A stretch of DNA of 62,072 nucleotides, filler included, from Collodictyon triciliatum (lineage: Eukaryota): NCBI GenBank assembly GCA_043381765.1. It is 4 parts of 4 records of this genome, joined end to end, with 100 filler letters (N's around TTAATTAATTAA, not from the genome) between each part and the next. Parts side by side here need not be neighbours in the genome. Positions count along the whole stretch, not along the records: positions 45,511 to 62,072 come from JBHJMP010001011.1; 3 more parts are not named here. One strand, 5' to 3'. The notes below the pieces were generated by a model. The model did not search any database and was not told where the DNA came from. It saw nothing but the letters and a program-made list of their open reading frames with translations. The position numbers and the translations under genes are program-made. Below, piece after piece: positions 7,341-62,072 of this stretch. How positions within the stretch are numbered: the first letter of the stretch is position 1; each line of letters starts with the position of its first letter.

Positions 7341-8014
7341 ATTAAGTAACTAATAATTATTAAGAGAAAAGGATTTTCTCTTTCTTTTATTTTTTATTTT
7401 TTAAAAAAAATCAACTAAATTGGCAGNNNNNNNNNNNNNNNNNNNNNNNNNNNNNNNNNNNNNNNNNNNNNNNNNNNNNNNNNNNNNNNNNNNNNNNNNN
7501 NNNNNNNNNNNNNNNNNNNNNNNNNNNNNNNNNNNNNNNNNNNNNNNNNNNNNNNNNNNNNNNNNNNNNNNNNNNNNNNNNNNNNNNNNNNNNNNNNNNN
7601 NNNNNNNNNNNNNNNNNNNNNNNNNNNNNNNNNNNNNNNNNNNNNNNNNNNNNNNNNNNNNNNNNNNNNNNNNNNNNNNNNNNNNNNNNNNNNNNNNNNN
7701 NNNNNNNNNNNNNNNNNNNNNNNNNNNNNNNNNNNNNNNNNNNNNNNNNNNNNNNNNNNNNNNNNNNNNNNNNNNNNNNNNNNNNNNNNNNNNNNNNNNN
7801 NNNNNNNNNNNNNNNNNNNNNNNNNNNNNNNNNNNNNNNNNNNNNNNNNNNNNNNNNNNNNNNNNNNNNNNNNNNNNNNNNNNNNNNNNNNNNNNNNNNN
7901 NNNNNNNNNNNNNNNNNNNNNNNNNNNNNNNNNNNNNNNNNNNNNNNNNNNNNNNNNNNNNNNNNNNNNNNNNNNNNNNNNNNNNNNNNNNNNNNNNNNN
8001 NNNNNNNNNNNNNN

Positions 8015-15051: not shown

Positions 15052-16533
15052 TCAGTTGATGAGATTGCCGATGGCCATACGATTGAGATGGGAATGGACA
15101 GGCGAGCCTGCAAGTGCCCGGGTGCGCAGAAGGGAGCGCGGCTGAGGAGCACGGCCAACCTTTGTGGGCATGTCGACATAGTCGTGGATGGAGGGCGCGT
15201 GCTGCGGATGAGACTGAGACTGAGACTGAAGCTGGAACTGGAACTGGGGCAGCTGCTCAGGCAGGGTGTGAGCGAGAGTGTGTGCCTCGATGGCGAGGGC
15301 GTTTGCCTGTGGGCGCAGATGCCAGACATCGATGGTGAAGCCGGCCTGCGTGGCGACGGTGCGGTCGCAGTAGTCTCTGCGGGCGTGTGCGGCCCGCTGA
15401 TGCATGCGAGGACGAGCCGGGGCGGCCTTTGGATTGGAGCCAGGATTAGCACCTGGATTTGCACTTGCACCAGCACCAGCATCAGCATCGGCATCGACAT
15501 CGGCAATCTGGTGCCAGCGGTAGCGACACTGCTGGTCCGTGCGGCCGGGGATGGCGTGGGCCATGCGCTTCCAGTGCGTCGCGCCGTGTGTGCGGACGAG
15601 CAGGCGCAGCAGGCGGTCCTCGTCCGGCGTCCACTCGCAGCGGCGGATGTGCGGGTTCAGCACGCGGTGCCAGCGATGGCAGCACTGCTCCGCCGTCCGC
15701 CGCTGCGCAAGCACGTCTGCCGCGTGCGCCACCACCGCGTGCCATCCCTCCCGGCCCACGGCACGCACCGCCCGGCACAGCGCCCGGTCCTCCTCCAGCG
15801 TCCAGTATCGCGGGCCCTGCTTTGCCCGCCGCACGCGCCTCACATCCACCTTTGCCTCCGCCTTGTCCTCGCTCTCGTCCTCCTGCTTCAGCCCCGTCGG
15901 CTGCCCCTCCCACTCCGCCTTCACGCCCGCCCGCTCTCTTCGCCGAACCTCCGCCTCGTCCTCCGTCTCCGTCTCCACGTCCTGCTGTTGCGGTGTGTGG
16001 CTGCCCCAGTTGCCCGCCCCTCGCGCTGTCGGCGGCTGGTGGAAGGCCGCCGCCGCCGTCAGAAGAGCCATCGTCTTTGTCTGCTCCATTCCGTCTGTCT
16101 CTCTGGTCTGCCCCTGCGTCTTGGGGTCTGCTTGCTCTTGGGAGTCTTGCGTGTGGGGAGAGAGTGCGGGGGAGAAATAAGGCGTGAACGATTGTGCCGC
16201 TGTTGTGGCGCTGGGACGGAGCGGCTTGGAAATGTTGGGAGGAGGCACAGGTTGCTCCTGTGGCGCCGGAGGAATGGGATGATGCCCGCTTTTGATTTTG
16301 ACATTTTGGAAATTCGTTTGTGCATTGCGGATGCGGGTGGTGGTGGTAAATTTTCGAATTGTGGGTTGGATACTGTGATGTTTGCGGGCGATTTTGTAAT
16401 TGTGGGTTGGGTTGGGTTGGGTTGTGCGACATTGGGGTAGGCTGATAGAAGAGGCTTCTGTTTGTTTGGCGTGGATTCGAGGGTAATGTTGTGGGTGGGT
16501 GGGAGGAGGAGGAGGAGGAGAGAGAGCGTTCAT
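15052..16533 (-). CDS. Two-repeat Myb transcription factor, intronless and GC-rich (start may be the downstream ATG of MEQTKT near 16089)
   Basis: Two Myb repeats with regularly spaced Trp: GPRYWTLEEDRAL..GW..RRTAEQCCHRWHRVLNPHIRRCEWTPDEDRLL..HWKRMAHAIPGRTDQQCRYRW. Confidence 0.92.
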   Translation of the reverse strand: MNALSPPPPPPTHPQHYPRIHAKQTEASSISLPQCRTTQPNPTHNYKIARKHHSIQPTIRKFTTTTRIRNAQTNFQNVKIKSGHHPIPPAPQEQPVPPPNISKPLRPSATTAAQSFTPYFSPALSPHTQDSQEQADPKTQGQTRETDGMEQTKTMALLTAAAAFHQPPTARGAGNWGSHTPQQQDVETETEDEAEVRRRERAGVKAEWEGQPTGLKQEDESEDKAEAKVDVRRVRRAKQGPRYWTLEEDRALCRAVRAVGREGWHAVVAHAADVLAQRRTAEQCCHRWHRVLNPHIRRCEWTPDEDRLLRLLVRTHGATHWKRMAHAIPGRTDQQCRYRWHQIADVDADADAGAGASANPGANPGSNPKAAPARPRMHQRAAHARRDYCDRTVATQAGFTIDVWHLRPQANALAIEAHTLAHTLPEQLPQFQFQLQSQSQSHPQHAPSIHDYVDMPTKVGRAPQPRSLLRTRALAGSPVHSHLNRMAIGNLIN

Positions 16534-18493
16534 GATGGAGCCATGAATGGTTATAAAGCAAAAGATCGCATCTTTATTACGGAAGGATTTTGTCTTCTAT
16601 TTGCATTTGGTTTGGTTCCTTCTACTTCTCACATATTTTTTTCGTATGTCCTCTCGTGGTTAATTATGATTGACTGAATAAAGGAAAAGGATGAATGTGT
16701 CCAGTTTTGATGAAGTTTTCTACTCTCTATTTTGTTTTTCCTTATTGCGCCCTTCATTCTACTTTCTGTTTTGATCAGACAAGGCTTTCGTTCCCTCGCT
16801 TTCATAGCGGCCTTTCATACTTTGTGTGCTGGATTTTTTTTCCCTTCTACTTCACGGGCTAAGTTGCCTAGTTTTCAGCTGTTTTTGTTATTTCAACCAC
16901 ACAGCGATGAAGATGAGAGCAGGCGCGTAAAAGCCCATCAAGAGAATGAAAGAACTGGTGAGGAAGGGAAGGATGGAAACGAGTGGTTGGCTGATGCTGG
17001 TTGATCGGTGGCAGGTATCAAGAACGCGATTGTTCAAAAACATATTAGCCTTCTTAATCTGCCTCACACTTTCATTTGATTTCCTCATTCCCCTTTCATC
17101 CACACGAATCCCTCTGATTTTGTAATTCATCGGCCAGCCTGTGAATAAAAAACTGGGCCATTTATATACCATTACATAAAATTGAACTGAATCAATCGCA
17201 CAAGACAGGACGCAACGTTACGTAACCATATCACTTTCCTTGCTTCTCTATTGTTTGTAACATAATTGTCCATTCCGTCAATGCTTCTTTTTTTTGAATT
17301 TTTGGTTGCTAGCACCATATATGTATAAATTTGTGGTCATCTTGAATTTGCGTCCAAAAAAAAACACATATAAGTATTAATACAAGTCGCCAGTCCGCAC
17401 AAATCCATTGCAAAATGAAGCACGATTCCGAACTTTAATTCATTCTCTTTGGCTGTTTCTCCTTCAAATTTTCATTCGTAATCCTTTTTGCTACATAAAT
17501 ATAGCAACATGAATTTTCGACTATTTGTTCATATTCTTGTTTTCTCTTTTCAATCAACACAATTTTTTTGAATTCGTTATTTCATTAGCCCAATCCTGTG
17601 CCTTATCATGTTCTATTTTTAGACTAATTCCAAAATAGGGTTGGTCTTTGCGGTGTGGTGCCCTGCTCTATTTTTAGACCAGATTTTCAATCCTAAATTG
17701 GAATTTTCAGTGTTTTACTATGAAAATGTTCTCTTTTGGATACTTTTGTGTCTTATTTAAGGATGGTGTGCACGCACACTCGATATATATATGGGTATTC
17801 TCTGTACCTTAATTTCTTGCACCAGAATTGTAACTAATCCGGCGAAGGATGAACACCAACAAAATGTGGCAATCCTCCCTAAATAATTGTATATATATAT
17901 GTAGATAATATATTATATTTACAAGAAATGTAGTCTAATTACTTTGTAATTTACAAATCATATACAATAAAAATTAATTTCCAGATTCAATAATTCCTAT
18001 TTTCATCTGTTGTAATGGTGATGGGACTGCACGCTCCGCAATCACTGCATTACCGACACCGGGCATCACAAATATCGTTCATGCGTAATTTACCTTCCTT
18101 CATTCGCACTCTCTTGATAAATCCATGCGATTAATGCCAGCAACAGTCATACAATACTTCAGTTGCCTTCGTGCACTCAACTTCAGAATACCAAAATCTT
18201 TGGTACGAATGGTAACTGAATCACATTTAATACCGTCTCGAAAGAGACGTAGCTATCTAAATGGCCCTTTTCCTTCATTCAGCACAAAATTTAGTGTGCA
18301 TGTTATTTTGTTGATTATTTAATTTCCTTTTTTTTTTTTTTTTTGTAGCTTTAATACGCATGAATTACTCCCAACAAACAACGGATTGTGACGCAAATTA
18401 TATACAGACTGATGGCTCAAAATGTATTATACCTATAAATCTTCTCATTTCTCGCCCCCCCCCCCCCCCCCCTTTTTTTTTTTTTTTTTTTGG

Positions 18494-31235: not shown

Positions 31236-32829
31236 CCATATGCAAATAGTGTGATTAAGGACTATGGAAGCATCTTGAGGTACCTCCTTCGACGTGTTGC
31301 TTCCAAGCGTGGTGAAAAAGCCTCTAAAAATCGGACCCCATGATTTTCGGAGTGTTTGGTGGCTCCAATTCAAATTTACTGCAACAGCCCGTTTGGTTAC
31401 TACACGGGGGCTTTACTTCGGAGGGTATCTGTTTGTCAGAATTTTCTTTTGGATGAAGGTGTCAATGTAATTTACTCATTAGAGAAAGAGTTCAGAAGGA
31501 TTTGGGATATGGGCCGAGCCATTCGGTCCAACGGCCGTGCAACATTTTGTTTCTGCACTCAATCTTGTGAATGACTCCATTCAAGCGGAGGTCTTTTTGG
31601 CTCCTGTCACTACATCCACGGTATCCCGGACTACTAGTGCATTTTTTTTGGGACGTTGTATAGCAAGTTTGTGGTGACATTCAAGCCTGATGAGCTACTT
31701 CAACCAATAATTAAATATGCTGTGCATAAATCCCGTGTGCAAAGATATGTGCTTTGACAATTATGATGTCATATCATGTCTTTATGTTTGTTTTGGCGTG
31801 TGGTGTTTTTCTTTGTGGCTTCTATCTGTTAAGAATTCTTTTGTGTTGATAGTGAAAAGCTCTCTAGCAAGGAAGTGGCAACCACGCAAAATAACTGGTA
31901 TTTTAGAATATCTCATGCCTCTGCCTTCGACTTCCTTTATCTTTGGCCTCATCTCTTGCAATTGAATTTTGATTAAATCATGTTATTTTCTTCAACGATG
32001 TTGGCCGAAGCCTTCGCCAACCAACCTCCTTAGACAATAAAGTTCATTCATTAAGAAAAAGTGTCGTGTGAATGAAAAGTCGATTCGCCTCCTGCAATCT
32101 CCATTCCAACTCATTGGTTTCGCGTCACAGAACATCGTTTGTGCGCCTCTTGGTTGATTTAATGCACAAAGATGCCGGACAAGAAATCACAGCACGCCGC
32201 TAACTAGTTTGATCCATCCATGGCTGTGTGCGAAGCAAAAGCCTCTGCCTGGATTATCCATGCACACACAGTCCAAAGTGTTATGTACCGGAAAAGGAAA
32301 CGACATGTTGCTGTCATTCGGGAACCCAGCGTGGGTGTGACGGAAATCCGGTCGACATTGGAGCGAGAGATGATGTCAGGCCATGCCGAGAGGGCGTCAC
32401 CTGTCGTCATCACGACAATCTGCATGTGGATATATGCTGAGTTGTCTGCGCGTGGGCGTGTGTGACTGAATACTAGGAAAGGCTGTTCATTGTGCAACGC
32501 TGACGCCAAGAAACGCACTTTGAGCTGAGAGTGGGAACGGGATGGACAGCCAAAAGCGGCTCAATGCCAAGGAGGCAGTTTCCTATTGCCTCTCGACTGT
32601 GCGTTCCTGTCTTGCAGAGGAGGTTTTGCGTCGCAAAAAGGAAATATAGTGCAAAAGAGGAGCAGCCCGATTGGCACTTTCGTATGACCAGGGTGGTTCG
32701 TCACGCCTCATCACAAGCCGAAGCAGCTGTTTTTGTGATGCATCATCACAGCCACTCCTTAGACACACACACACAAGAGCGACCGACAATGCGGAGGAGT
32801 GACGCCAGCACCCGACACTAGCAAAAGAA

Positions 32830-32837
32830 TATAAAAG
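32830..32837 (+). promoter_or_regulatory. Candidate TATA box upstream of the cyclin gene
   Basis: TATAAAAG about 155 nt upstream of ATG 32986, in an otherwise GC-balanced context. Confidence 0.35.
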
Positions 32838-32985
32838 AGAGGAGCGCCAGATTCCAGGCTTTTTCCAGCAGTGCAGCCAAATACCATCACTACACCCAGC
32901 AAAGACGCAGGAGGACATCCAAACCCTGGAAAAGAAAGAAGAAAAAAGGAAAGAGGAAGAGGAAGAAGAAGAGAAGCAAAGAGCG

Positions 32986-33744
32986 ATGCAAAGCCGACAC
33001 GGACAGCACACAATCTTCACCGACGCAGAGCAGGAGACGGAGCAGAGCCACGGGGTGGGGCGGGAGGAGCTGCACGGCCGCATCTGCGCATACATGAGCG
33101 CCTGCTGCCACCGCCAAGCAGCCCAGAGCGGGAGCCGCAGCAGCCTGTTTGACCTTGTGGCGATGCCGATGAGCACGAGCGAGATGCTGGCCCGTGTGCG
33201 GCGCTACGAGATTGCGGCCGACGAGGCTGTGCTGTGCGCCCTGATTCTTGTGCAGCGCTACGCGGCAGCCCGCGGCACGGCACTGACTGTCGCAAACCAC
33301 GGGGCGCTCTTACTTGTGGCCCTGCTGCTGGCCTCAAAGACCCTCGAGGACATTCCCCACAGCAACGCAACCTTTGCCGCCGTCGCAGCTCTGGCTCCTG
33401 CCGATGTAAACGCCCTTGAGCTCGACTTCCTCGCAGCCGTCCGCTTCCGTCTGCGGTGTGCCCCGGACAAAGTTGCCCGCCTCAGGGAGACGTTTCTGGC
33501 CGACGCTCTTGCTGCGCGCGACGCTGCCCCGCTTCTCCCGGCATCCTCGTTCTCAGTCTCGGCCGGTCAGTCTCAGTTTCGGTCTCAGTCTCAGTCTCAG
33601 TCTCAGTCTCAGTCTCAGTCTCAGTCTCAGTCTCAGTCTCAGTCTCAGTCTCAGTCTCAGTCTCAGTCTCAGTCTCAGTCTCAGTCTCGGTCTCAAGCTC
33701 CAATCCGTGCATCGACGCCCTTGCGTGCTGTTTTCTCATCGTAG
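32986..33744 (+). CDS. PHO80/PCL-like (plant U/P-type) cyclin, intronless, with C-terminal (QS)n tract
   Basis: Cyclin-box pattern: LFD..PMSTSEMLARVRRY..AVLCALILVQR..LTVANHGALLLVALLLASKTLEDIPHSNATFAAVA..VNALELDFLAAVRFRL. Confidence 0.9.
   Translation: MQSRHGQHTIFTDAEQETEQSHGVGREELHGRICAYMSACCHRQAAQSGSRSSLFDLVAMPMSTSEMLARVRRYEIAADEAVLCALILVQRYAAARGTALTVANHGALLLVALLLASKTLEDIPHSNATFAAVAALAPADVNALELDFLAAVRFRLRCAPDKVARLRETFLADALAARDAAPLLPASSFSVSAGQSQFRSQSQSQSQSQSQSQSQSQSQSQSQSQSQSQSQSQSRSQAPIRASTPLRAVFSS
33583..33686 (+). repeat. (TCTCAG)n coding hexamer repeat encoding poly(QS)
   Basis: Perfect tandem repeat, in frame within the cyclin ORF. Confidence 0.95.
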
Positions 33745-51800: not shown

Positions 51801-52629
51801 GATGTAGCTGGTGCAGTGGGCGGTCTGAGGGCAGGAAGAGACCGAGCCGACCTTTTATATACACAAAGGTAAGATCGATACGTTGTTATGAAGCTTGAAT
51901 TGAAAGAAAGTATTGGAGAACCAAATTCATGTCATTATATTGTGGATATCTTTCTTTCATTTAACTCGATTAATAATTTAATCAACCAGGCAGTGTGCAA
52001 TACGACTTATGAAACATAGTTTATGTGTCGATGAAAATACGACAATCCTGGTATTTCACTTTAATGGAACAGATACAACCCTCGTTATAAAATGTAGGAA
52101 ATTGACCCTTTATTGCTACCTTCGATCAGAGCCGGTTGTAGGCCGGGAACCTTGGGCTGTGGTAGAGCTCATCGAAACTTTACTTTGCCTCTAAAAAAAG
52201 AAAAAGAAAAAGAAAAAGAAAAAGAAAAAGAAAAAGAAAAAGAAAAAGAAAAAGAAAAAGAAAAAGAAAAAGAAAAAGAAAAAGAAAAAGNNNNNNNNNN
52301 NNNNNNNNNNNNNNNNNNNNNNNNNNNNNNNNNNNNNNNNNNNNNNNNNNNNNNNNNNNNNNNNNNNNNNNNNNNNNNNNNNNNNNNNNNNNNNNNNNNN
52401 NNNNNNNNNNNNNNNNNNNNNNNNNNNNNNNNNNNNNNNNNNNNNNNNNNNNNNNNNNNNNNNNNNNNNNNNNNNNNNNNNNNNNNNNNNNNNNNNNNNN
52501 NNNNNNNNNNNNNNNNNNNNNNNNNNNNNNNNNNNNNNNNNNNNNNNNNNNNNNNNNNNNNNNNNNNNNNNNNNNNNNNNNNNNNNNNNNNNNNNNNNNN
52601 NNNNNNNNNNNNNNNNNNNNNNNNNNAAA

Positions 52630-52717
<88 letters not shown>

Positions 52718-52920
52718 GTAAAATGAAAAAAAAAACAATGCGATACACCACGATCTGATTCGGTTGCAAGCCACAGCGACAACCTAACTCCACAACATTA
52801 TACCACGTGGACTCTATTTGGAGTTAGACTGACGGTGCCACCTCAACGTCCCAGATATATATATATAAAAAAAATAATGAATTGACCTCCAGGAGTTTGA
52901 GATCGGTGGAGCTGCCATAA
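45820..52920 (-). CDS. Axonemal dynein light chain (p28/DNALI1-type) domain protein with long coiled coil, AXDND1-like; ends approximate
   Basis: Exons at 49880-50395 read FPSRRPTGRADAVHLQAWFEKKL..|IPHDMDDLLSRTMNEIVRQ|VSIQCQERGDILKKTW, the p28 P-x-x-R-x-D..ELIRQV-x-I-x-C-x-ERG-x-LL pattern. Many coiled-coil exons and an S-rich tail follow. The N-terminal exons and the true stop are unresolved. Confidence 0.75.
50893..50948 (-). mobile_element. Micro retro-insertion family A: 24-nt insert (50909-50932) with 16-bp TSD
   Basis: GTGATTCTTCTTCGTT at 50893-50908 and 50933-50948 flanks TTTTTCCTTTATTCGATTCAAAGA; the core is identical to 6776-6798. Confidence 0.8.
52195..52715. repeat. (GAAAAA)n and (TAAA)n microsatellites flanking an N-gap
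   Basis: Perfect repeats at 52195-52290 and ~52628-52715. Confidence 0.9.
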
Positions 52921-53453: not shown

Positions 53454-56400
53454 CTATTCCAAAGATTCCTCCTCCAAGATTTCACCATCAATGCTCTCTA
53501 GCGAGTCATTAATATCTGCGATGGACTCCTCCACGAAATCCTCCACTGGAGTTGTATTTTCTGTGCTGCGTGGAGTTTGTGGTTCAGCCGATGGTGAGGC
53601 TTCTTGAGGGGAATGACCGGAAGAAGATGGTGCGGATGCAGCATCTCCTGTGCAGTCTTCGTATTCTCCATGGTATGCCTTTTGGTCAAACTTCGAACCT
53701 ATCGTCGGGGGGCCATGCGAGAATTTGAGTTGGCTGTGGGTTTCATCCGCGTGTGTATCCCCAACTTGGCATACTTCATCCAGGGATAGCTGACGAAGTT
53801 GCTCGAGTTTAAGGGGTGGTATGACGAAACTAACATTTTTTGTATCATTTTTATTGCCTCGACTACTTGAGGGTCTTTGGAAGGGTTCGTCCATATTGCT
53901 TAGTTCATCACAGCTACTGCTATCCTCAACTTGGGGCTTTACCGAACGCCAAGGCTGTCTTGGTAGCCCTTGTTCAATATCTGCGACTACTTGTTTTGTA
54001 TGTTCTTTTGCTACAATTTGATTCAATTCCTTTCTTTTGATGACTAAAAAAATAACGCCAATGGTAGTCATTAAGAGGCCGGCACCACCCAGAACTGCAC
54101 CGATAATTTGTCCAATTATCCCATCCTCGATCTCTTTCTTTGGTCCAGGGAACTTGGTTACAGGATTCATAATGACTGCAAAAGAATCTAAGTGGTCACA
54201 AACGCAGCTAACTTTGTTGATGAGGGTGATGTTCGAGATGCGGGTGAAATTCAAAGCGTGGGTAGCATTAAAGATTTGCGTGATATTACAACCCAGTGGT
54301 GACCAATTTAAAGTATCTTTTCTATAGGATTGACAGCTTAAATCATATTGTGAATGCTTTGATTCCAGTGACTGTTTCCTAGGTAATAACAATTTATTTG
54401 AATTTTCGTTGGGTAGATTCGAAACGTAAATTTCCGTGTAGTTAGTAGAGGGGTCCTCTAATACAATAGAGATAACGTCAGAATAGAGGCTTCCTTTGCT
54501 TAGGGGTGGAAAGAGCTCCTCGGTAATTATCACATGTTGTATGATAAAATCATAATTTCTATAAGCAAGTCCGCTAAGTTGCAGACTGGCCTCACCGTTA
54601 CTGTTTTTCATTTTGATCATGGATATTTTTGCGTCAGGACACAATATAACGGCCTTGCTTTGAAGAGCTATGCCGTTGGTGACATAAGCATCATCTTCAC
54701 ATTGAGAAAGCAAAAGCCCGGCTCTTGACATCACTTTTACAGAGTCAATATATATTCCCATTACTTCTGCTGGCGACTTAGATGATGAATTTGACGTGCG
54801 AACTTCAATCACTCGGAGTTTTGAAGCGTGGTAAAGAATTTCAAAACAGGATGATAGGGCTATACCAGTGTTTGGAGTTGCAGAGATGGAGGAGTAATTT
54901 TCTACATTTTATTTAAAAAGTAAAAAGAAAAAGAAAAGTTAATTAGAAAAAAAAAGAAGTAAACAAACATACGATAAATTTTTTTTTTTTAAAAAAAACA
55001 GGAAATTTCAAGTCACATGTCCATCATAAGTACTATAAAGCCAGTTGAGATATATATTATTATGATATCATATTAAGATTAGTCAACTCACCGATTACAT
55101 ATTTTAAATGCAACGATGCTTCGCCAATAAATTCCATACTTATGCAAACATCCGATATTATCTGGGAATGTTGTTGAAAAATTGCGTCAACTTGGTTTGC
55201 ATCAGTAAATAATTGGCCTTCATCAGCCACTTTAAGCATTTTAAAAACTTTGTATCGCATATCGCCCGCGTGAAGTTGATTTGCAGCACAGGAAGTTGAC
55301 TTTTGTTTGATAACAATCCCTTTCAAAATGTTCATAGTACCAGAATTGTATTGATAAAAAAGGTCATAATCACCCAAATTAAGGGCGTCATTCATTTCGT
55401 TGTCAATAATTCTGGATGCAGTAGACAATCTCTGCAGTTCATTATCGAATAAAAGAGGCTTTACTCTGACACTTCTTGAAACCCTCAACATATTCCCAAC
55501 GGAATCATTGATTAGGACAAACACCTCCAAGTAGGTATAGATTGAATCTTCCTCAATCATCTCACCGGCTGGTAAAACTATACTTCTAATACAAATCGAT
55601 GAAAATCCCGAAACGACAAGGTCAGATTCCCCAGATTTTGGAACATATCCAAATGCAAAACTAAGCGGCGTGTTTTGCAACGTCGTTGACCAGCCAACAG
55701 CACTAAAAGCGAAAAAATCCATCTGATTTCCGCCATCCGGCGATACTTCAAAATTACCACCATAGGGTAAAACATTTGTTTTGAATGAAATTTCAGAGTA
55801 TCCAATATCACCAGATTTTAAATCTTGTGCAGTACAACGAAGGGTGTAATATATGTTTTGTTTGAGCTTTCCTGCTGGGATAGTCAGTCTTGGAGTGCTA
55901 ATGCTGGATAAACTAATACTAATATCGCTTGTTGATGAATTCTCTTCTCTTGCACTCCAAGAATAAACCAATGGATTGTTTATCGGTGACTTTGCGGATG
56001 CCGAAATCCGAAGAGGACTGGACACAGATGGATAAAGCTGCTTTAAAGGGCTCATTTCTACTATCGGAGGATCTCCATCAACAACTACTACAAGTTTAAA
56101 GGTAGAAACAGCAGAATAATTTTCGTCTTGATGACCCACTCTCACAGAAAAATTATAACGCCCTGGTGGCAAAAGAGCAATAGGAGATTGTGGAATGTAT
56201 ACTCTTGGGTGATTTTCGAGAATGAGCTCTGAACCATTCTTATCTAGACATATTTCGTTTGACGGCAGGAAGATGCATGTCCATGAAAAAGACAAAAGGT
56301 TGACATCTTGCTCCTTAACATCGGGGTTAAATGAGGGACTAGCATCAATATAGAATCCTCTCTTTGTTCCGACAACGCTTTCAGAACCACCAGCAATTAT

Positions 56401-59400
56401 AGGTCGCAATCCTGATGAAGCTGCAAGTATACTAACTGTTGCATAATTGCATCTACCAAAGCCGTTATCGTCATTGTGATTTGCACACACTTTGACTTTG
56501 AAAGAGTAAAATTGGAAAGGTTTCATTTGGAAAGGAAGGATAACTAGGGACTTTGCTGACCTTGCAGATGGCTTTATGCTTAACTGTTCCCCTCTCAGTT
56601 GAACCCATTCAAACGAAAATGAAGAGGCATTCAAACAAAATGGTAGTCCCACGATCAAATTTACGACATTGGCCTGGTAAGGGTAAAATATTTTTTCATT
56701 TGACCCATCAATCTGTACATCTGGAATGGCTTTGCTTATTTTTTGAACAGTAATATGTGAAGTGTTGCTGATTCCTGATGGTAAGATTAGGGTCAAATAT
56801 ACTGTATAATTCATTCCATACTTCAAGTCTGCATCCAATTCTAATATTTCCCTAGAGTTATAAATAGCCGATTTCTGAGTATCAGAGAAACTGATATCAG
56901 ATTGTGAAGGTACCAAAGTCCAGTTATATTCGACGTTGGGGCATACGCTATCCGCAATTATCGATGAAAAAGAATTAACGGTTAATTTTGAGCATTTTCC
57001 TATTACTTGCGGCCCACTCAGTTTGACATGTATGCTAGTTTTAGGGTTATTTAATGATATTACAACAGAGCCATTAAATGAGATCATATCTTGGGGATTT
57101 TCACCAGCCATCAAAACATTCGGACGTAAAATTAACGTTTGTCCGATTCTAATTTCACCAGAGCATCCGACGTATATAGTAAGATGTTTATCACTGAACC
57201 ATTCACACAGGAGAGTCTTAATATTTTCAAACAATAAACTGCACATAAAACGATTTTGGGTTCCACCTCTATTCGTAGACTCTGAGAAAAGTACAGATAT
57301 GTTTTGCGCAAATGGATCAAAAACAGCCCTTACTATTGTGACATTTAGTTCTTTGGACTCATAAATGGAGTCCCATATAATTATCGGCTGATAGTATCCA
57401 CCAACACCTTTGAAAAAAGTTACTTCTCTATCCATAGATGTATTTCCGTAAGAATCAAACGTTTTCACTTTGACTGCAGTGCCTATGTTGAGCTCCTTTC
57501 TCTTGACTCTCCCTTGCACCTCGTATATTTGATTGCCTATATGAACAGGAGAACATACTATTGTGTCAGAATCTGATTCAACGATGGATCCTTGTTCAAG
57601 ATCTAAATCTTGATTTTGTTTTGTAAGTATGATTAATTGAAGCTCCACGATTGAATGCACGTAATTTCTTGTTGAACTTTCAATTAGTAAAGACAAAGAA
57701 AATTTGCTATCGTGCTTTGTAGGAGGGGAAATGTTGAGTGATAAAAATCTCCACTTTCCTGCAAGCACACGGATGAGAAAAACAGCATCTTGAACTTGTA
57801 TGACTCCATTTTGATCCGCATCAAGATATGACTTTTGCCAATCAGTTATATTTGAATCAATTAAACTAGCCAGATACTGTAGAGTGTATTGGACATCCAG
57901 AACAGAAAATTCACAGTCCCCGTCAGTATTGCCTCGAATTTGGCTAGGGGAACACTCATCTAGTCCATTTTTCTTGGAAATAAACTCAAAGAAACGATTG
58001 AAGTTGACTTTGTATACACTGTCATTCGATGCAGAATCACATTTGACTTCAATCGCTCCTGCTTTGAATCGCCTCGAGGTATCATTTTGCATGAGTGAGC
58101 CGATTTTTGTTCTCTCTTCATTATTTGCATTCATCTTTGAAATGAGTCCAGTCATAGATGTAACACCTTCCCTCTTTCCAAACAGAGTAATAATAGCCAT
58201 CTCTAAGCTATCTCCTTTCGCAACAGATGACGGATTTGCTGCTCCTATTATCCGTAGTGTCCCTGGAGGGTCATTGAGTGAGACTTCAAACTGTCCTCCG
58301 GGCCAATTGCTTCCTGTGCTGTATGAAAAAGCGTCCAAAATGTCATTATCATAAAATATGCTAAGGTCGAAGCTGCCGATAGACCAAGAGCCTGTGTTCA
58401 ATATTATCGGAATGGATATTGATGCTCCTACTAAAATAGGAGGGATTGGCGGGCCTTGCTTGAATCCTATATCTACGTCACCTACTTCTGGCAAGAGATT
58501 TGCATACATTTGGAGTGTCGAACGCTGGTGATTGCATGCAGTTATTGATATTGTTATGAAATGAAAGGAATTATCAAGCAACTTGACGATACCAAGATTT
58601 TTGTCAACTACTATTATGGAAGGGTAATCAGACTCGTATGTAAAAAGTCCGGCCACTGTATTTGCTTTGGGGAAAATGGTGCCATCAGTCAGAAAGGCGT
58701 CTACAATTATATATTCAGTGGCACCGATAATCCCAGAAAAAGTTTGAGAGAACTTGGGTTCGATAGAATTCACTCCAACAGATGTATTTGTCACTATTAT
58801 GTCCAACACACACGAGATATCCTTGAACTTTCCGAATATTTTCACTGTCCCAAATCCAATTCCTGTTGGTATGACAAGATTATCATTGATTCTTACTATA
58901 TTTAAATCGATATCTGAGACCATAAATTGAGTTAGTGGTGTTTTTGTTACGTCAATAACAGATCCATCCGTCAGAACTAAAAATAATTCTAGCTGAGCTT
59001 GCTGGTAGATATATGTGCAATCAAGCCGACTTAACAAGTTCTCTGAGAAATCCTTGGAATTTTCGTACGAGGGATACGGTGATGAATTCATGTCAAGATG
59101 ACTAAAAGAAACAACATTGATTATAACAGATGAGTACACACTTATTTCATTTGATAACCTGATTCTCAATTCAGACTGCCCAACGCCTTTACCCGTTGCC
59201 TTGACCTGAACTGAGGACATATTTCTGTGGCTCTGAGATATCACGATTTCGATTAAATCTAATTCGTCAAACGTAACATCATCGTAAATCGTCCTGGAAT
59301 CGAGTGTGTAATCCGATTGTAGACCATTTTCAAAAAATGCCATCACAGATAAAATTGCAGCAGTAGGCATTCCCAGTTCTGTAGAAATGTCATTTCCATG

Positions 59401-61900
59401 AACAATTCGAAGAACATTGGCAGAACCAACAATCTTGGAAATTCTAGGCAGCTTGATACTGACAAGAGCACTTCCATTTTTTACCAGCTTTCCACAGGAA
59501 GACCATGTCACATTTATAAGATACCCACAACCTGTTTCCTGGGCGATGATTTCCATGGGTGATTGCGAAATGCCAACAGAGGTACTCGTCGGTGACAAAG
59601 AAATACCCATAAATTCTGACAGATTCATTCGGTTGCCGTCTGAAAATACTGCAGTTGATATCACATACGCTTTCTTTTTCTCAAAGTTTAAATTTTGGAC
59701 ACCTTTTGCTGAAATTGTGATGACATCAGTAGGGTTAGTAATAAAATCTTTTGATACTTGAACATAGATATCTGTCAGAACAACCGATTCTAGCGCCACA
59801 ATTTGGACGGGTTGGTTTGATACTATTATCTGCAATTCGTTGGATGGAAACCCAACTATAGATATAAAAGTGGACCCAAGGGATATACCATGTAAGCTCG
59901 TACCCGAAACAAGGGCTACTTTTGGGTTTGACGAATGGAACGTCACCAAAGGGGTTATATCAGCCACTAAAGATTCATTTCCAGACGTGAAAGTTACTGA
60001 AGCAGTCAACTTACTTCTTTGATAGGATTGCTTTGTACATGGATATTCCAGCCATCCATAGACTGCATTCAAACTTATATCATCAGATGCTATGTTAACA
60101 TTTGGCCGAGGAACCCATATTTTCAAGGTTGAGGTTGCTGAAAAAGATGAAACAACAATACTCCCAGATTTTGCTGTTTGATTTGCTGATAAGATTATTC
60201 TACATTTTTCAATCGACGCAACCATTTGGTCACTAGATTTACATAAAACAGAAGAACTCACATCTAGTGGTCCTTGAAATTCCCAATATTGAAAAACTTG
60301 AATTTGTACAACTACATTATCTCCAGTGAACATGACGATGTTAAAAACTTCTTGCCTTGATATTGACAAATAGTATCCACGAACTGAATCCTGGGCAAAA
60401 TATACTTCACCGTAATGGGAGGCTTTTGTTCTATCCAAAATGATGCCATTACTTCTGGACAATACAATCGGAATATTCTGAATATCGCTCATTGCCCGAA
60501 TGACAATGCTAATTTGTGAACTCTGTGATTCAAGGACATTCCATACATTCCAAACTACTTCTCCTATTTGGAAGTTTCCCGTCACGCTAGAATCTACTAT
60601 GCCGTTTTGTCGAGTCCAAACCATGACTGCCACATTGTTTTTAATGCTAATAGCTCCATCAAACATTTTATTTCCGTTAATAGAGTCTATTCGAAGTACT
60701 TGCGAATCATAATGAATCATTATATCGATTGCTTCAAGTACTTGTTCACCGGTTATTGCAGAAATAGGAGTCTTGAAGGAATGTAATTTTTTGATAGGGT
60801 GGATTGGGAGCTGCATAGTTATTCCCTTTTGAAGTGCTCCATAATTTGGGACCTTGGTAATCTGAACTTTATCAACGGTAAAAATTTGGTTCTCGAATGT
60901 TATTACTGGGGAAAGTCTTGAAGTCTCTGCCTTAAAAATATCCGTAGGAAGAGGAATGGTTATAAGGCATGGTTCATGGCCACTTGTCAAACATAGGGAT
61001 GAAACCCAGGGAAATTCCTTCAAGTGAGCAGAGACGTAACCTCCTGATGTTTTTGATTCTCCTCTTGCACCGACCAACCAGCCAATAATATTCAATTTTG
61101 GATTTGTCTGATATACGGTGGTAGTTAAACTGAATCCGCGAGCAGAAACAGGCTTTGGTAACAAAGTATTCAAGTATATTTCTGATGTTAAGTTCCCGGT
61201 AGTTATCTTGAAATTGACAGCTTTTTCGGAATGAAGAACACCTGTAATGCTCTGACTTTGTTGGTACTTCGAAAAATGCATTGGGGCCTCTTTAAGAAAT
61301 CCACCGCCAATCTCAGAAGCATAGAATTTGAAATCGATTGATGGATTGTTGGAACTGCATGTTCCGCACGCATTTTTTGTCTGACCTGAGATGCACTCTG
61401 TAGTATTGACAATGATGGTCTGTAAAGGTGACTCAGAAGGCAAAAAAGTATCCGTTTGAGATGGTATATCTGCTATATCCATATGTTCGCTCCTGTGGAA
61501 TGAAAGAAGGAGGTATTTAAAAATGGAACATCTCTAGGGCAATTTTGTGCAATTTGATTCTGAGGTTATAGTTGTAGTGATTAATTGTACTTTTTTTTAC
61601 TCTGGCGCATTTTTTTTGCATGTCCCAGACTTAGACATGAAATGGGATACCGAGCCGATATACTTCCGTTGAAGCTCGATGATTTTTTCCTTTCTACAAC
61701 ATTAGAGGGATTAATACAAAAATGTATTTAAGGGTTGGCATAGATGTATCTTATTTTTCATGAGTACCATGCAATATTCACAAATTAAATGTAGAAGCTC
61801 CATTGCATTTCTGGTATAAAAACAAAAACAAAGAAGGATTGAGGATTGTAGAGGTACCCGAGGTGTAACTTTGTTGTGAGCATTGATCCTACATGAGAAA
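53454..61900 (-). CDS. Giant type I membrane protein: TMEM132-like cohesin + Ig (BIG) repeats, second cohesin, dockerin, PKD/REJ, GAIN/GPS, one TM, acidic cytoplasmic tail (5' end probably beyond the window)
   Basis: A 6.4-kb exon (61492-55092) joins in phase through GT-AG intron 55091-54902 to the last exon (54901-53454); short candidate exons lie upstream. Motifs: LCKSSD..KC..LKIWVPR..SDDISLNAVYGW..C..YQ (TMEM132-like); SIPIILNTG..GSFDLSIFYDNDIL (cohesin); GNTDGDCEFSVLDV..DADQNGVIQVQDAVFL (dockerin); IAGGS..IDASPSFNPD..FSWTC and PYGGNFEVSP..F..GW..PLSFAF (REJ); C..W...GC..CVCDHLDSFAVIM (GPS); IIGAVLGGAGLLMTTIGVIFLVI-KRK (TM). Confidence 0.85.
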
Positions 61901-61973
61901 ATAGGATAAGTAAGATAGGAAGGGAAAGGATTGTTCAAATTTTATGAGGCACAATTTTCAAAAGTGAGCAAGA

Positions 61974-62072
61974 AACAAACAAACAAACAAACAAACAAAC
62001 AAACAAACAAACAAACAAACAAACAAACAAACAAACAAACAAAACAAAACAAAACAAAACAAAACAAAACAA
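61974..62072. repeat. (CAAA)n/(CAAAA)n microsatellite at the window end
   Basis: Perfect tandem repeats, probably intronic in the giant receptor gene. Confidence 0.9.

What the first reader, a model, noticed from the sequence alone, without database searches (positions are those of the whole stretch)
53454..61492. Eukaryotic surface receptor combining cohesin and dockerin modules with a polycystin-1-like REJ-GAIN stalk
Seen: one spliced reading frame (>2600 aa) with, in order, a cohesin-like beta domain (~60822-60400), TMEM132-type Ig/BIG repeats, a second cohesin-like domain (~58450-58045), a dockerin-like pair of Ca-binding loops (~57936-57757), PKD/REJ (~57030-55460), GPS, and a single TM. 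Known: cohesin-dockerin is the high-affinity assembly pair of bacterial cellulosomes; TMEM132 has cohesin plus BIG domains; REJ-GAIN occurs in polycystin-1 family proteins, normally followed by 11 TMs. Inference: a protein carrying both partners could polymerise head-to-tail, bind in trans between cells, or scaffold secreted dockerin-bearing enzymes. That would be a cellulosome-like or adhesive/mechanosensory surface system in a protist, and a link between TMEM132 and polycystin architectures. I do not know this combination as a characterised system.
Basis: partly seen in the sequence, partly recalled or inferred. Interest (0 to 1): 0.88.

Follow-up and report, generated by a model that had tools for sequence, protein, structure and literature searches.

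The report
Protist surface receptor with self-paired cohesin-dockerin
A protist gene encodes a giant single-pass surface protein that joins a TMEM132-like adhesion cassette, carrying a true cohesin next to its own dockerin, to a polycystin-type REJ-GAIN stalk; the cohesin and dockerin most likely clasp each other rather than build a cellulosome.

Summary
On the minus strand, two long open frames (61533..55060 and 54908..53454) join in frame through a 190-nt GT..AG intron. They encode about 2,610-2,630 aa, and a Diphylleia rotans transcript (40% identity) is colinear across the junction.

The cohesin-linker-dockerin tandem is not peculiar to this gene. It closes a roughly 1,250-aa TMEM132-like cassette that recurs, up to three full tandems per chain, in at least 93 of 150 examined relatives. 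Those relatives carry cadherin, TNFR, EGF, phosphatase or Dictyostelium-repeat contexts.

A complex prediction (0.73 against best control 0.25) and covariation at the predicted interface suggest that each cohesin binds the dockerin that follows it. This argues for an intramolecular or homotypic clasp, not an enzyme scaffold. Only the fusion to REJ-GAIN-1TM is lineage-specific: it was seen only here and in Diphylleia. The window's GPS reads HL-D, so autoproteolysis is unlikely. I class it as a new variant of known kinds, of moderate interest.

The parts
61698..61741 (-). Candidate first exon (speculative). An ATG is followed by a 14-15 residue hydrophobic, signal-peptide-like stretch. A GTAGAA donor lies at 61697 in the phase needed by the acceptor at 61494-61493.
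   Evidence: Script scan of upstream ATGs and phase-2 donors; sequence read. No RNA or homology support.
55092..61492 (-). Large exon encoding about 2,134 aa of ectodomain: N-terminal domains through REJ and the first, helical part of GAIN.
   Evidence: Open frame; candidate acceptor AG at 61494-61493; donor GTGAGT at 55091; 40% identity to P0003 over aa 26-2143.
60859..61176 (-). N-terminal beta-sandwich domain preceding C1 (aa ~120-225). It sits where the TMEM132 second Ig-like domain would be.
   Evidence: AF2 model of aa 26-400 has pLDDT above 80 from about model residue 95 and is all-beta. The region is conserved in relatives. No Pfam hit.
60403..60825 (-). C1: orphan cohesin-fold domain (aa 237-377), in the same position as the TMEM132 cohesin-like domain. 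It is followed directly by Ig domains and has no dockerin of its own.
   Evidence: Coh-Doc family HMM i-E 2.9e-8 at aa 237-357. BLASTP of C1 against C2 gives 1.1e-5, and 17 of 32 C1 phmmer domains overlap C2 hits. Compact Foldseek matches are cohesins, TMt 0.57-0.71. No Pfam hit for Cohesin or TMEM132_3rd on this sequence.
60106..60360 (-). TMEM132 fourth-domain-type Ig (aa 392-476).
   Evidence: Pfam PF16070, 1e-5, 25.8 bits (gathering score 27). The orthologue scores 38.6 bits. 14 of 21 relatives carry it.
59500..59778 (-). TMEM132 sixth-domain-like Ig (aa 586-678); weak match.
   Evidence: Pfam PF23487, E 0.021, 15.2 bits.
58525..59496 (-). Further beta-rich, Ig-like region (aa ~680-1003) between the TMEM132-type Igs and C2.
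   Evidence: Colinear conservation with relatives, including repeated FSDG-type motifs in the A2 consensus. The P0004 and P0005 alignments span it. The domain type itself was not tested.
58039..58524 (-). C2: canonical cohesin domain (aa 1004-1165).
   Evidence: Pfam Cohesin, 29.9 bits above the gathering score of 24.1. AF2 pLDDT is about 90-97 over the core. Foldseek gives 63 PDB matches at E<=1e-3, and the best-ranked are cohesins.
57943..58038 (-). Linker of about 32 aa between C2 and the dockerin. It is predicted to be disordered and contains a Cys.
   Evidence: AF2 pLDDT below 50 at model residues 172-193. The equivalent region has a median length of 42 aa across 136 related units.
57748..57942 (-). 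Dockerin (aa 1198-1262): two 12-residue Ca-binding loops and three helices.
   Evidence: Family profile A1 against PDB: type I dockerins 2ccl_B 1.2e-9, 1ohz_B 5e-9, 4fl4_A 2e-7. Helices at model residues 212-222, 232-238 and 248-258. Loop columns are near-invariant in 137 units. The region aligns with Pfam-significant dockerins of P0005 and P0025.
57409..57696 (-). Conserved beta domain of about 95 aa immediately after the dockerin (aa 1280-1375). It belongs to the cassette.
   Evidence: Matched in 21 further stored relatives that lack REJ. Beta strands at the end of the AF2 model.
55360..56436 (-). REJ domain, best Pfam stretch (aa 1700-2058). The PKD/REJ region starts further upstream, at about aa 1440-1500.
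   Evidence: Pfam REJ 1.4e-48, 166 bits, two stretches. The orthologue has REJ 6.9e-50 plus a K319L-like PKD domain.
54902..55091 (-). Intron of 190 nt (GTGAGT...TAG), AT-rich, phase 1.
   Evidence: Sequence. The P0003 alignment is exactly colinear across the junction.
53454..54901 (-). Last exon: GAIN subdomain B with GPS, the TM helix, the cytoplasmic tail and the stop codon (53456-53454).
   Evidence: Open frame. Alignment to P0003 residues 2251-2481. Both proteins end in similar acidic C-termini.
54171..54338 (-). GPS motif (aa 191-246 of the exon frame). The cleavage tripeptide reads H239-L240-D241 instead of HL-T/S.
   Evidence: Pfam GPS 1.7e-4, 22.4 bits (gathering score 22.5). The orthologue scores 8.8e-11 and has HLT. 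The role of the Thr nucleophile is taken from PMC4810088 passages.
54039..54122 (-). Single transmembrane helix (aa 263-290 of the exon frame), followed by KRKE.
   Evidence: Kyte-Doolittle scan: this is the only segment with a 19-residue mean >= 2 in either frame.
53457..54035 (-). Cytoplasmic tail of 193 aa, rich in Ser, Glu, Asp and Pro. It carries one RVxF-like motif (KNVSF, nt 53840-53826).
   Evidence: Composition and motif scan. The orthologue's tail has KKVSF.

Best explanation
The locus is one gene of a protist whose closest relative found is the collodictyonid Diphylleia rotans. It encodes a type I surface glycoprotein of about 2,610-2,630 aa.

The ectodomain is one copy of an old, mobile, roughly 1,250-aa cassette: N-terminal beta domain, orphan cohesin-fold domain C1, TMEM132-type Ig domains, more Ig-like domains, canonical cohesin C2, a linker of about 32 aa, a calcium-type dockerin, and a small beta domain. 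The cassette sits on a polycystin-type PKD/REJ + GAIN/GPS stalk, followed by one TM helix and an acidic Ser-rich tail.

The dockerin most likely binds the cohesin just before it, through the canonical type I interface (dockerin helices 1 and 3 on one sheet of the cohesin). That would form a Ca-dependent, mechanically strong clasp within the chain, or between identical chains. The cohesin would then not be a free docking site for other proteins.

The whole protein probably works as an adhesion or mechanosensing receptor. In this reading the cassette engages a ligand or surface, the REJ-GAIN stalk bears load, and the tail signals. In this species the GPS lacks the hydroxyl nucleophile (HL-D), so the GAIN domain is probably an uncleaved structural stalk.

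Shown: the gene structure, the domain identities, the conservation of the tandem, and computational support for C2-dockerin contact. Inferred: cis rather than trans pairing, calcium dependence, surface location, and the adhesion or mechanosensory role.
For: Gene and architecture: (the orthologue has the same order of Pfam domains and is colinear across the intron).

Cohesin C2: Pfam above its gathering score. AF2 pLDDT 78.8, pTM 0.76. Foldseek best matches are cohesins, 63 at E<=1e-3.

Cohesin-like C1.

Dockerin: the family profile hits solved dockerins at 1.2e-9. The Ca-loop columns G202, D214 and D250 are 137/137, D239 is 136/137 and D203 is 135/137.

Tandem conservation: 483 library representatives at E<=1e-3. 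Among the 150 listed, 136 single stretches in 93 proteins span cohesin plus dockerin. A further 45 of 98 cohesin-only stretches have a dockerin within 200 aa. Linker median is 42 aa, long enough to fold back.

Binding: complex prediction score 0.73, best of 3 controls 0.25. That mark was reached by 51 of 78 solved complexes and 2 of 108 mismatched pairs; on eukaryotes, by 39 of 65 and 2 of 126. The runs agree in at least 95% of contacts, and the partner's pLDDT is at least 55. The interface is dockerin helices 1 and 3 on cohesin strands. Like complexes are solved, so this pass may partly be memory.

Covariation over 137 units: of 6,966 cohesin x dockerin column pairs, 7 of the top 10, 12 of the top 20 and 16 of the top 50 have both columns in the predicted interface (expected 0.6, 1.2 and 3.0). 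The 24 predicted contact pairs average 0.074 against -0.002 +/- 0.047 (0 of 20,000 random draws reach this). Slid partners give 0.008-0.042. The top pair, 97-259, shows size compensation (G-F 67, V-A 11, I-A 6, L-A 6). In 15 multi-unit proteins, 37 of 39 units are complementary.

Control blocks: C1 x dockerin and C1 x C2 show no outlier (maxima 0.298 and 0.278, against 0.562 for C2 x dockerin).

Membrane topology: single TM and 35 N-glycosylation sequons in the ectodomain frames.

GPS chemistry: HL*T with Thr as the nucleophile, and T-to-V blocks cleavage (PMC4810088 passages).
Against: - No RNA evidence from this organism.
- No signal peptide is established. The candidate first exon is speculative.
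- Pfam Dockerin_1 does not hit the window's own sequence at E<=1.
- The predicted interface columns are not more conserved than the rest (cohesin 1.49 vs 1.83 bits, p 0.95; dockerin 1.80 vs 2.08, p 0.82).
- Apart from pair 97-259, the top covariation scores (about 0.2-0.27) are no higher than in control domain pairs. The units are related by descent, so the counts overstate independent events.
- Neither covariation nor the complex model can tell cis pairing from pairing between identical chains.
- I could not inspect coordinates of the AF2 monomer model, so cis packing rests only on pTM 0.76.
- The complex model did not use my alignment and belongs to a textbook pair.
- No ligand, localisation or signalling evidence exists.
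Confidence: 0.55

Rival explanations
1. Trans pairing. The dockerin of one molecule binds C2 (or the orphan C1) of another. This would give head-to-tail polymers on one cell, or homophilic cell-cell or cell-prey adhesion.
For: The predicted C2-dockerin binding and the covariation fit homotypic trans pairing just as well. There are two cohesin-fold domains but one dockerin, so C1 has no partner in cis. Some bacterial proteins carrying both modules are thought to self-assemble; this is recalled, and only search listings were seen.
Against: The dockerin always follows its cohesin at a conserved linker length of about 30-50 aa, including up to three full tandems per chain in giant relatives. This is the signature of a self-contained unit. 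C1 x dockerin covariation shows no outlier. AF2 gives pTM 0.76 for the single chain.
Confidence: 0.2
2. The cohesin and dockerin are structural relics. They are folded spacer domains of a long stalk that no longer bind each other or anything else. The protein's function would lie in the Ig and REJ parts.
For: The predicted interface is not more conserved than the rest of the domains. In the window, Ca-loop 1 has N at position 1 and S at position 9, where the family has D. The vertebrate TMEM132 cohesin has no known dockerin partner (PMC6030884 passages).
Against: The Ca-ligand columns are near-invariant over 137 units. Interface covariation with steric compensation is present. The complex score is 0.73 against a best control of 0.25 (counts as given under the best explanation).
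Confidence: 0.15
3. A cellulosome-like scaffold. The surface cohesins recruit secreted, dockerin-tagged enzymes of the same organism.
For: Both modules are true homologues of the cellulosomal pair. C1 is unpaired.
Against: C2's binding face covaries with its own dockerin. No other cohesin- or dockerin-coding frame occurs among the 1,211 six-frame ORFs of the 62-kb window. Relatives carry the tandem in cadherin, TNFR, EGF and phosphatase receptor contexts, not next to glycoside hydrolases. The genome is not held, so a proteome-wide search was impossible.
Confidence: 0.03
4. Gene-model artefact: two adjacent genes, or a pseudogene read through.
For: The 5' end is unresolved.
Against: There are 2,157 and 484 stop-free codons in 37% GC DNA. 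A canonical GTGAGT..AG intron sits in the right phase. A Trinity transcript of a relative is colinear over both exons without a gap at the junction, and the C-terminal ends are similar.
Confidence: 0.03

Closest known systems
TMEM132 family (animal single-pass adhesion proteins) and the TMEM132-like cassettes of the choanoflagellate and sponge cadherins lefftyrin, coherin and hedgling
   Same: The order is the same: N-terminal conserved domain, cohesin-fold domain, then tandem BIG2/TMEM132-type Ig domains (PMC6030884 passages). Both are type I with a single TM. Both have an RVxF-like motif in the tail (the paper mentions a PP1-docking motif in TMEM132).
   Different: Here the Ig array continues into a second, canonical cohesin plus a dockerin and a small beta domain. 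A REJ-GAIN stalk then lies between the cassette and the membrane. No Pfam hit to the TMEM132 N- or C-terminal families. The paper states that dockerin homologues are not detectable in vertebrates. I could not see its supplementary figures, which may show whether dockerins were noted in the cadherin relatives.
Bacterial and archaeal type I cohesin-dockerin pairs (e.g. C. thermocellum CipA cohesin with Xyn10B dockerin, PDB 1OHZ/2CCL)
   Same: Homologous folds and sequence motifs. The predicted interface uses dockerin helices 1 and 3 on the cohesin sheet. Small proteins with both modules are the nearest ESM-Atlas clusters.
   Different: In cellulosomes the two modules sit on different proteins (scaffoldin and enzyme). 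Here they form a fixed tandem in one eukaryotic chain. A conserved Cys (115 of 137 units) stands in Ca-loop 1 where bacterial dockerins have Gly. No enzymes are attached.
Polycystin-1 / PKDREJ / sea-urchin REJ proteins
   Same: PKD/REJ module followed by GAIN with a four-Cys GPS motif next to the membrane.
   Different: Only one TM helix. No PLAT domain, 11-TM domain or channel-like region. The window's GPS reads HL-D, so it is probably uncleaved. A single-TM REJ protein (sea-urchin REJ1) is known to me from memory only; no call confirms it.
Adhesion GPCRs
   Same: A long adhesive ectodomain ends in a GAIN/GPS domain next to the membrane.
   Different: No 7TM domain, only a single TM and a disordered acidic tail.

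Membership tests
Cohesin (PF00963), domain C2 | Pfam score above the gathering threshold | tested here: met
   29.9 bits against 24.1, aa 1035-1098. The orthologue scores 48.4 bits.
Cohesin (PF00963), domain C2 | Cohesin beta-sandwich fold | tested here: met
   AF2 core pLDDT is about 90-97. Foldseek's best-ranked PDB matches are cohesins, e.g. 1ohz_A TMt 0.68 and 1anu 0.66; 63 matches at E<=1e-3.
Cohesin (PF00963), domain C2 | Binds a dockerin | tested here: inconclusive
   Computational support only. Complex score 0.73 against best control 0.25; the mark was reached by 51 of 78 solved and 2 of 108 mismatched pairs; it is a textbook pair, so the pass may be memory. Interface covariation. No measurement.
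Cohesin-like (TMEM132_3rd PF23039 / Cohesin), domain C1 | Profile match to a curated cohesin model | tested here: not met
   No Pfam hit at E<=1 or <=1e-3.
Cohesin-like (TMEM132_3rd PF23039 / Cohesin), domain C1 | Homology to C2-type cohesins and a cohesin fold | tested here: met
BLASTP against C2 gives 1.1e-5. Compact Foldseek matches are cohesins, TMt up to 0.71.
Dockerin type I (PF00404) | Pfam score above the gathering threshold on this sequence | tested here: not met
   No hit at E<=1. Aligned relatives pass: P0005 35.4 bits, P0025 32.8 bits, against 22.9.
Dockerin type I (PF00404) | Profile-level homology to solved dockerins | tested here: met
   A1 profile: 2ccl_B 1.2e-9, 1ohz_B 5e-9, and about 20 further dockerin chains at E<0.05.
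Dockerin type I (PF00404) | Duplicated 12-residue Ca-binding loop followed by a helix | tested here: met
   Loops at aa 1202-1213 and 1238-1249, with D/N at positions 1, 3, 5 and 12. The columns are near-invariant in 137 units. Three helices in the AF2 model. Ca binding itself was not tested.
TMEM132 family | TMEM132-type Ig domains above the Pfam thresholds | tested here: inconclusive
   The fourth domain scores 25.8 bits against 27, and the sixth 15.2 against 27.8, in the window. The orthologue's fourth domain scores 38.6 bits.
TMEM132 family | Ig array followed directly by the TM and the TMEM132 C-terminal region; TMEM132 N-terminal family | tested here: not met
   No hit to the TMEM132 N- or C-terminal families. 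About 1,900 aa of cohesin, dockerin, REJ and GAIN intervene before the TM.
Polycystin-1 family | REJ module | tested here: met
   PF02010, 1.4e-48, 166 bits.
Polycystin-1 family | GPS with an HL-T/S autoproteolysis site | tested here: not met
   The GPS pattern is present (22.4 bits against 22.5; four Cys and a Trp). The tripeptide is HLD in the window and HLT in the orthologue. Consensus taken from PMC4810088.
Polycystin-1 family | PLAT domain and an 11-TM C-terminal half | tested here: not met
   One hydrophobic helix only, then a 193-aa hydrophilic tail and a stop. No PLAT or PKD_channel hit.
Cellulosome-type scaffoldin system | Cohesins recruit dockerin-tagged enzymes encoded elsewhere | not testable with these tools
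   No genome is held for the window. Within the window no other cohesin or dockerin frame occurs. Covariation ties C2 to its own dockerin.

The most novel reading that the evidence does not exclude
The cohesin-dockerin tandem is a eukaryotic, force-gated intramolecular latch. Under load the very strong Coh-Doc bond would open and release the hidden linker of about 30-40 residues. In series with the REJ-GAIN stalk, this would give a two-stage mechanosensor. The latch would be the ancestral partner arrangement of the TMEM132, coherin, lefftyrin and hedgling cassette, and vertebrate TMEM132 would have lost it. The orphan C1 cohesin might then capture an opened dockerin in trans, turning tension into homophilic adhesion.
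Probability: 0.15. Interest if true: 0.8.

Novelty: new variant of a known kind. Interest (0 to 1): 0.55.

Why it matters
The TMEM132 paper left one question open: does the animal TMEM132 cohesin do what bacterial cohesins do? No dockerin is detectable in vertebrates (PMC6030884). This locus and its relatives show that non-vertebrate versions of the same cassette carry a true dockerin in the same chain, paired with a second cohesin. Evolutionary covariation and structure prediction both point to a real contact between the two. That makes eukaryotic cohesin-dockerin binding directly testable with small recombinant modules.

The locus also documents a REJ-GAIN stalk used with a single TM helix in a lineage near the base of Amorphea. 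This bears on how the polycystin and adhesion-GPCR ectodomain machinery was assembled by domain shuffling. It is not evidence for a protist cellulosome.

Tried and rejected
- RNA check. The look-up of sequencing runs listed 8 runs; 5 held a small share of the sampled words (<=0.18), several of them labelled freshwater metagenome. Nothing was laid, so these shares say nothing about expression or habitat.
- Own-genome search: no genome is held.
- Earlier scan notes: none for this place or for these words.
- phmmer of the single sequences against PDB. The Coh-Doc segment gave only a weak dockerin-like hit (8x39_A, E 0.015). The N-terminal 365 aa gave nothing. The family profile was needed.
- Interface conservation test: negative.
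- C1 x dockerin covariation: no signal above the control level, so I make no claim that C1 binds the dockerin.
- Word-indexed homologue searches over the whole frame and over the REJ half each found only 4 proteins. Their sensitivity is limited, so the statement 'only Diphylleia shares the architecture' is provisional. In addition, only the best 150 of 483 library hits were examined.
- Taxon names for the giant relatives: none on record for the 10 I looked up.
- Papers not held: Peer et al. 2009 (PMC3035643) and Nichols et al. 2012 (PMC3420208).
- One paper search failed because a term was too long. I repeated it in corrected form.

Full report
**1. What is in the sequence**

The minus strand of 53454-61533 holds two stop-free frames of 2,157 and 484 codons in DNA of about 37% GC. 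Between them lie a GTGAGT donor (starting at 55091) and an AG acceptor (ending at 54902). Removing these 190 AT-rich bases joins the frames in phase: g55092 + aa54901-54900 gives GAA.

The best relative found is P0003, a 2,743-aa protein predicted from a Trinity transcript of Diphylleia rotans in EukProt.
- It aligns to residues 26-2143 of the first frame at 40% identity.
- It aligns to residues 7-256 of the second frame at E 9e-19.
- The P0003 coordinates at the two alignment ends (2242 and 2251) are exactly what the proposed splice predicts, with no gap.

A single mRNA of a relative therefore covers both exons. I could not test RNA from this organism.

The scan found a short ORF at 61741-61698 with a hydrophobic, signal-peptide-like peptide and an in-phase GTAGAA donor. 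This first exon is speculative.

The window is eukaryotic. A Myb gene and a cyclin gene lie elsewhere in it. No genome is held for it.

**2. Domain identities**

Pfam on the two frames gives:

| Family | Score | Position |
|---|---|---|
| REJ | 1.4e-48 | aa 1700-2058 |
| Cohesin | 29.9 bits (gathering score 24.1) | aa 1035-1098 |
| Ig_TMEM132_4th | 25.8 bits (gathering score 27) | aa 392-476 |
| Ig_TMEM132_6th | E 0.021 | aa 586-678 |
| GPS | 22.4 bits (gathering score 22.5) | second frame |

The Diphylleia orthologue passes all of these clearly: REJ 6.9e-50, Cohesin 1.4e-12, GPS 8.8e-11, Ig_TMEM132_4th 1e-9, plus a K319L-like PKD domain.

The dockerin is not found by Pfam in the window's own sequence. 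An alignment of the cohesin-dockerin segment with 19 short relatives (A1) gives a profile that hits solved type I dockerins: 2ccl_B at 1.2e-9, 1ohz_B at 5e-9 and 4fl4_A at 2e-7. There were 35 PDB sequences at E<=1, and nearly all of the significant ones are dockerins. The window's segment also aligns with Pfam-significant dockerins of relatives P0005 and P0025.

AF2 on A1 gave pLDDT 78.8 and pTM 0.76. The model has a beta-sandwich, a disordered linker (model residues 172-193) and three helices. Foldseek's best-ranked PDB matches are cohesin modules, 63 of them at E<=1e-3.

The N-terminal cohesin-like domain C1 (aa 237-377) has no Pfam hit. Three other results support it:
- It is matched by an HMM built from the C2-type units (i-E 2.9e-8).
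- It matches C2 directly by BLASTP (1.1e-5).
- In an AF2 model of aa 26-400 (pLDDT 81.9) its compact fold matches are cohesins, with TMt up to 0.71. The other high-ranking rows are long multi-Ig chains with TMt below 0.2.

A hydropathy scan finds one TM helix (aa 263-290 of the last exon), followed by KRKE and a 193-aa Ser/Glu/Asp-rich tail.

**3. The cohesin-dockerin pair is a conserved tandem inside a mobile cassette**

I searched the 291-aa cohesin-dockerin segment against 1.84 billion representatives. This gave 483 proteins at E<=1e-3, 211 at <=1e-10 and 43 at <=1e-30. Many are giants of 5,000-8,000 aa with several matched stretches.

Among the 150 listed:
- 136 single stretches in 93 proteins span cohesin and dockerin together.
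- 45 of 98 cohesin-only stretches are followed by a separate dockerin stretch within 200 aa.
- 15 proteins have two full units and 14 have three.

The N-terminal module (including C1) recurs upstream of these units at a regular distance. A global alignment of 20 relatives shows the same order throughout: N-domain, C1, TMEM132-type Igs, further Ig-like domains, C2, dockerin. A beta domain of about 95 aa after the dockerin is also shared.

The relatives place the cassette in many contexts. In the 21 members of A2, Pfam finds Ig_TMEM132_4th in 14, Cohesin in 13, Ig_TMEM132_5th in 7, Dockerin_1 in 3, Cadherin in 2 and TNFR_c6 in 2. Y_phosphatase, EGF/teneurin, Dicty_CTDC, ankyrin, REJ and GPS each occur in 1. 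Their sources are mostly unnamed assemblies. Their eukaryotic nature is inferred from this domain content.

The REJ-GAIN part was found joined to the cassette only in the two Diphylleia isoforms. This holds among the 165 stored proteins and among the REJ relatives retrieved by a word-indexed search, where 3 others have REJ with or without GPS but no cohesin. That negative is provisional, because the index is insensitive and only 150 of 483 hits were seen.

The nearest ESM-Atlas clusters are small proteins annotated with both Cohesin and Dockerin_1, and some are bacterial. The tandem as such therefore also exists outside eukaryotes.

**4. Do the two modules bind each other?**

*Complex prediction.* complex prediction on C2 (model residues 5-170) and the dockerin (194-264) scored 0.73, against 0.25 for the best of 3 controls.
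- That mark was reached by 51 of 78 solved complexes and 2 of 108 mismatched pairs. On eukaryotes the counts are 39 of 65 and 2 of 126.
- The three runs agree in at least 95% of contacts, and the partner's pLDDT is at least 55.
- The interface is dockerin helices 1 and 3 on cohesin strands.
- My alignment was not used. Like complexes are solved, so the pass may reflect likeness rather than this copy's binding.

*Covariation.* As an independent test I computed MI-APC covariation over 137 tandem units.
- Of 6,966 cohesin x dockerin column pairs, 7 of the top 10, 12 of the top 20 and 16 of the top 50 have both columns inside the predicted interface (expected 0.6, 1.2 and 3.0).
- The 24 usable lowest-error contact pairs average 0.074 against a background of -0.002 +/- 0.047. 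None of 20,000 random draws reached this. Sliding the dockerin partner by 1-3 columns gives 0.008-0.042.
- The strongest pair (cohesin 97, dockerin 259) shows steric compensation: G-F 67, G-L 8, V-A 11, I-A 6, L-A 6, V-V 6.
- In 15 multi-unit proteins whose units differ at position 97, 37 of 39 units are complementary.

*Caveats.*
- The units are related by descent, so these are not independent events.
- In a control with 88 full cassettes, only pair 97-259 (0.562) stands clear of the maxima seen for domain pairs not expected to touch (C1 x dockerin 0.298, C1 x C2 0.278). The other top C2 x dockerin scores are at that background level.
- The predicted interface columns are not more conserved than the rest.

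*Other observations.* The Ca-ligand columns are almost invariant: G202, D214 and D250 in 137/137, D239 in 136/137 and D203 in 135/137. The linker region has a median of 42 residues, mostly 30-50. That is long enough to let the dockerin fold back on its own cohesin.

**5. Most likely mechanism**

I read the evidence as follows. Each C2 binds the dockerin that follows it, forming a Ca-dependent clasp. The fixed adjacency, the conserved linker length, the several units per chain in relatives and the single-chain pTM of 0.76 favour a cis clasp. Pairing between identical chains cannot be excluded with these data.

This leaves little room for the cellulosome-like reading, in which free cohesins recruit dockerin-tagged enzymes. 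The binding face is tied to its own dockerin. The contexts are receptors, not glycoside hydrolases. No other cohesin or dockerin frame lies in the window.

The whole protein looks like an adhesion receptor on a load-bearing REJ-GAIN stalk. That role is inferred from the known roles of TMEM132-like cassettes, REJ and GAIN, and is not shown here.

One species-specific detail stands out. The GPS tripeptide is H-L-D in the window but H-L-T in Diphylleia. The Thr hydroxyl is the nucleophile of GAIN autoproteolysis, and T-to-V blocks cleavage (PMC4810088, passages read). The window's protein is therefore probably uncleaved.

Both tails carry exactly one RVxF-like motif: KNVSF here and KKVSF in Diphylleia. 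This recalls the PP1-docking motif noted for TMEM132 (PMC6030884 passage). Such a short motif is expected by chance fairly often, so I give it little weight.

**6. Comparison with what is known, and novelty**

- *TMEM132.* The cassette matches the TMEM132 architecture described by Sanchez-Pulido and Ponting (PMC6030884, passages read). They traced it to choanoflagellate and sponge cadherins. They noted that dockerins are not detectable in vertebrates, which leaves the role of the cohesin open. The protein is not a TMEM132 orthologue, because the N- and C-terminal families are absent and about 1,900 aa intervene before the TM.
- *Polycystin-1.* It is not a polycystin-1 family member. It has one TM, no PLAT domain and no channel-like half.
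- *Adhesion GPCRs.* It is not one, because it has no 7TM domain.
- *Literature.* Full-text searches found 0 papers with 'dockerin' and 'REJ domain'. They found 2 with 'dockerin' and 'choanoflagellate', neither describing this tandem by its listing. The key survey of non-cellulosomal cohesins and dockerins (Peer et al. 2009) and Nichols et al. 2012 are not held. Supplements were closed. Prior mention of eukaryotic dockerins next to these cohesins therefore cannot be excluded.

I class the locus as a new variant of known kinds: a lineage-specific fusion of a widespread cassette with a REJ-GAIN single-pass stalk. The more general point is the self-paired eukaryotic cohesin-dockerin tandem. Interest is moderate, at 0.55. 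The domain calls are ordinary homology. The evidence that the eukaryotic pair really touches, and the link to the open TMEM132 question, are worth a bench test.

Noticed in passing
window 54186-54188 (codon of D241 in the GPS tripeptide): The GPS cleavage tripeptide reads HL-D here but HL-T in the Diphylleia orthologue. Autoproteolysis of the GAIN domain may therefore have been lost in this species.
   Followed up: partly
window 53826-53840; P0003 residues 2704-2708: Each cytoplasmic tail holds exactly one RVxF-like (PP1-docking-type) motif: KNVSF here and KKVSF in Diphylleia. They lie at different distances from the TM. TMEM132 tails are reported to carry a PP1-docking motif. This could be chance.
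   Followed up: partly
window 57910-57912 (Cys at model position 208 of the Coh-Doc segment) and relatives: In Ca-loop 1 of the dockerin, 115 of 137 related units have Cys where bacterial dockerins have Gly. A second conserved Cys lies a few residues upstream in the linker. This suggests a eukaryote-specific disulfide stapling the loop.
   Followed up: no
relatives P0008-P0156: The same TMEM132-like + cohesin-dockerin cassette is fused in other proteins to cadherin repeats, TNFR Cys-rich repeats, EGF/teneurin repeats, a tyrosine-phosphatase domain, ankyrin repeats or Dictyostelium CTDC repeats. Giants of 5,000-8,000 aa carry up to three full tandem units.
   Followed up: partly
window 61973-62072: The window ends in a TTTG/TTTGT-type microsatellite (read on the minus strand), just upstream of the gene's unresolved 5' end. 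It may mark a contig end.
   Followed up: no
window 52098-52823 and 7364-8143: Stretches where three or more frames on both strands stay open for 145-240 codons. The second lies in the 6-8 kb bin with GC 0.25. This suggests low-complexity or repeat DNA; one stretch lies just downstream of the gene's 3' end.
   Followed up: no
window 15052-16596 (-) and 32803-33744 (+): An R2R3-type Myb DNA-binding ORF (Pfam 1.2e-23) and a cyclin ORF (2.8e-12). Both sit in locally GC-rich islands (0.52-0.53, against about 0.37 elsewhere).
   Followed up: no
window 8598-10805 (+) and 7405-8607 (+): Long ORFs of 735 and 400 codons with no Pfam match at E<=0.01.
   Followed up: no
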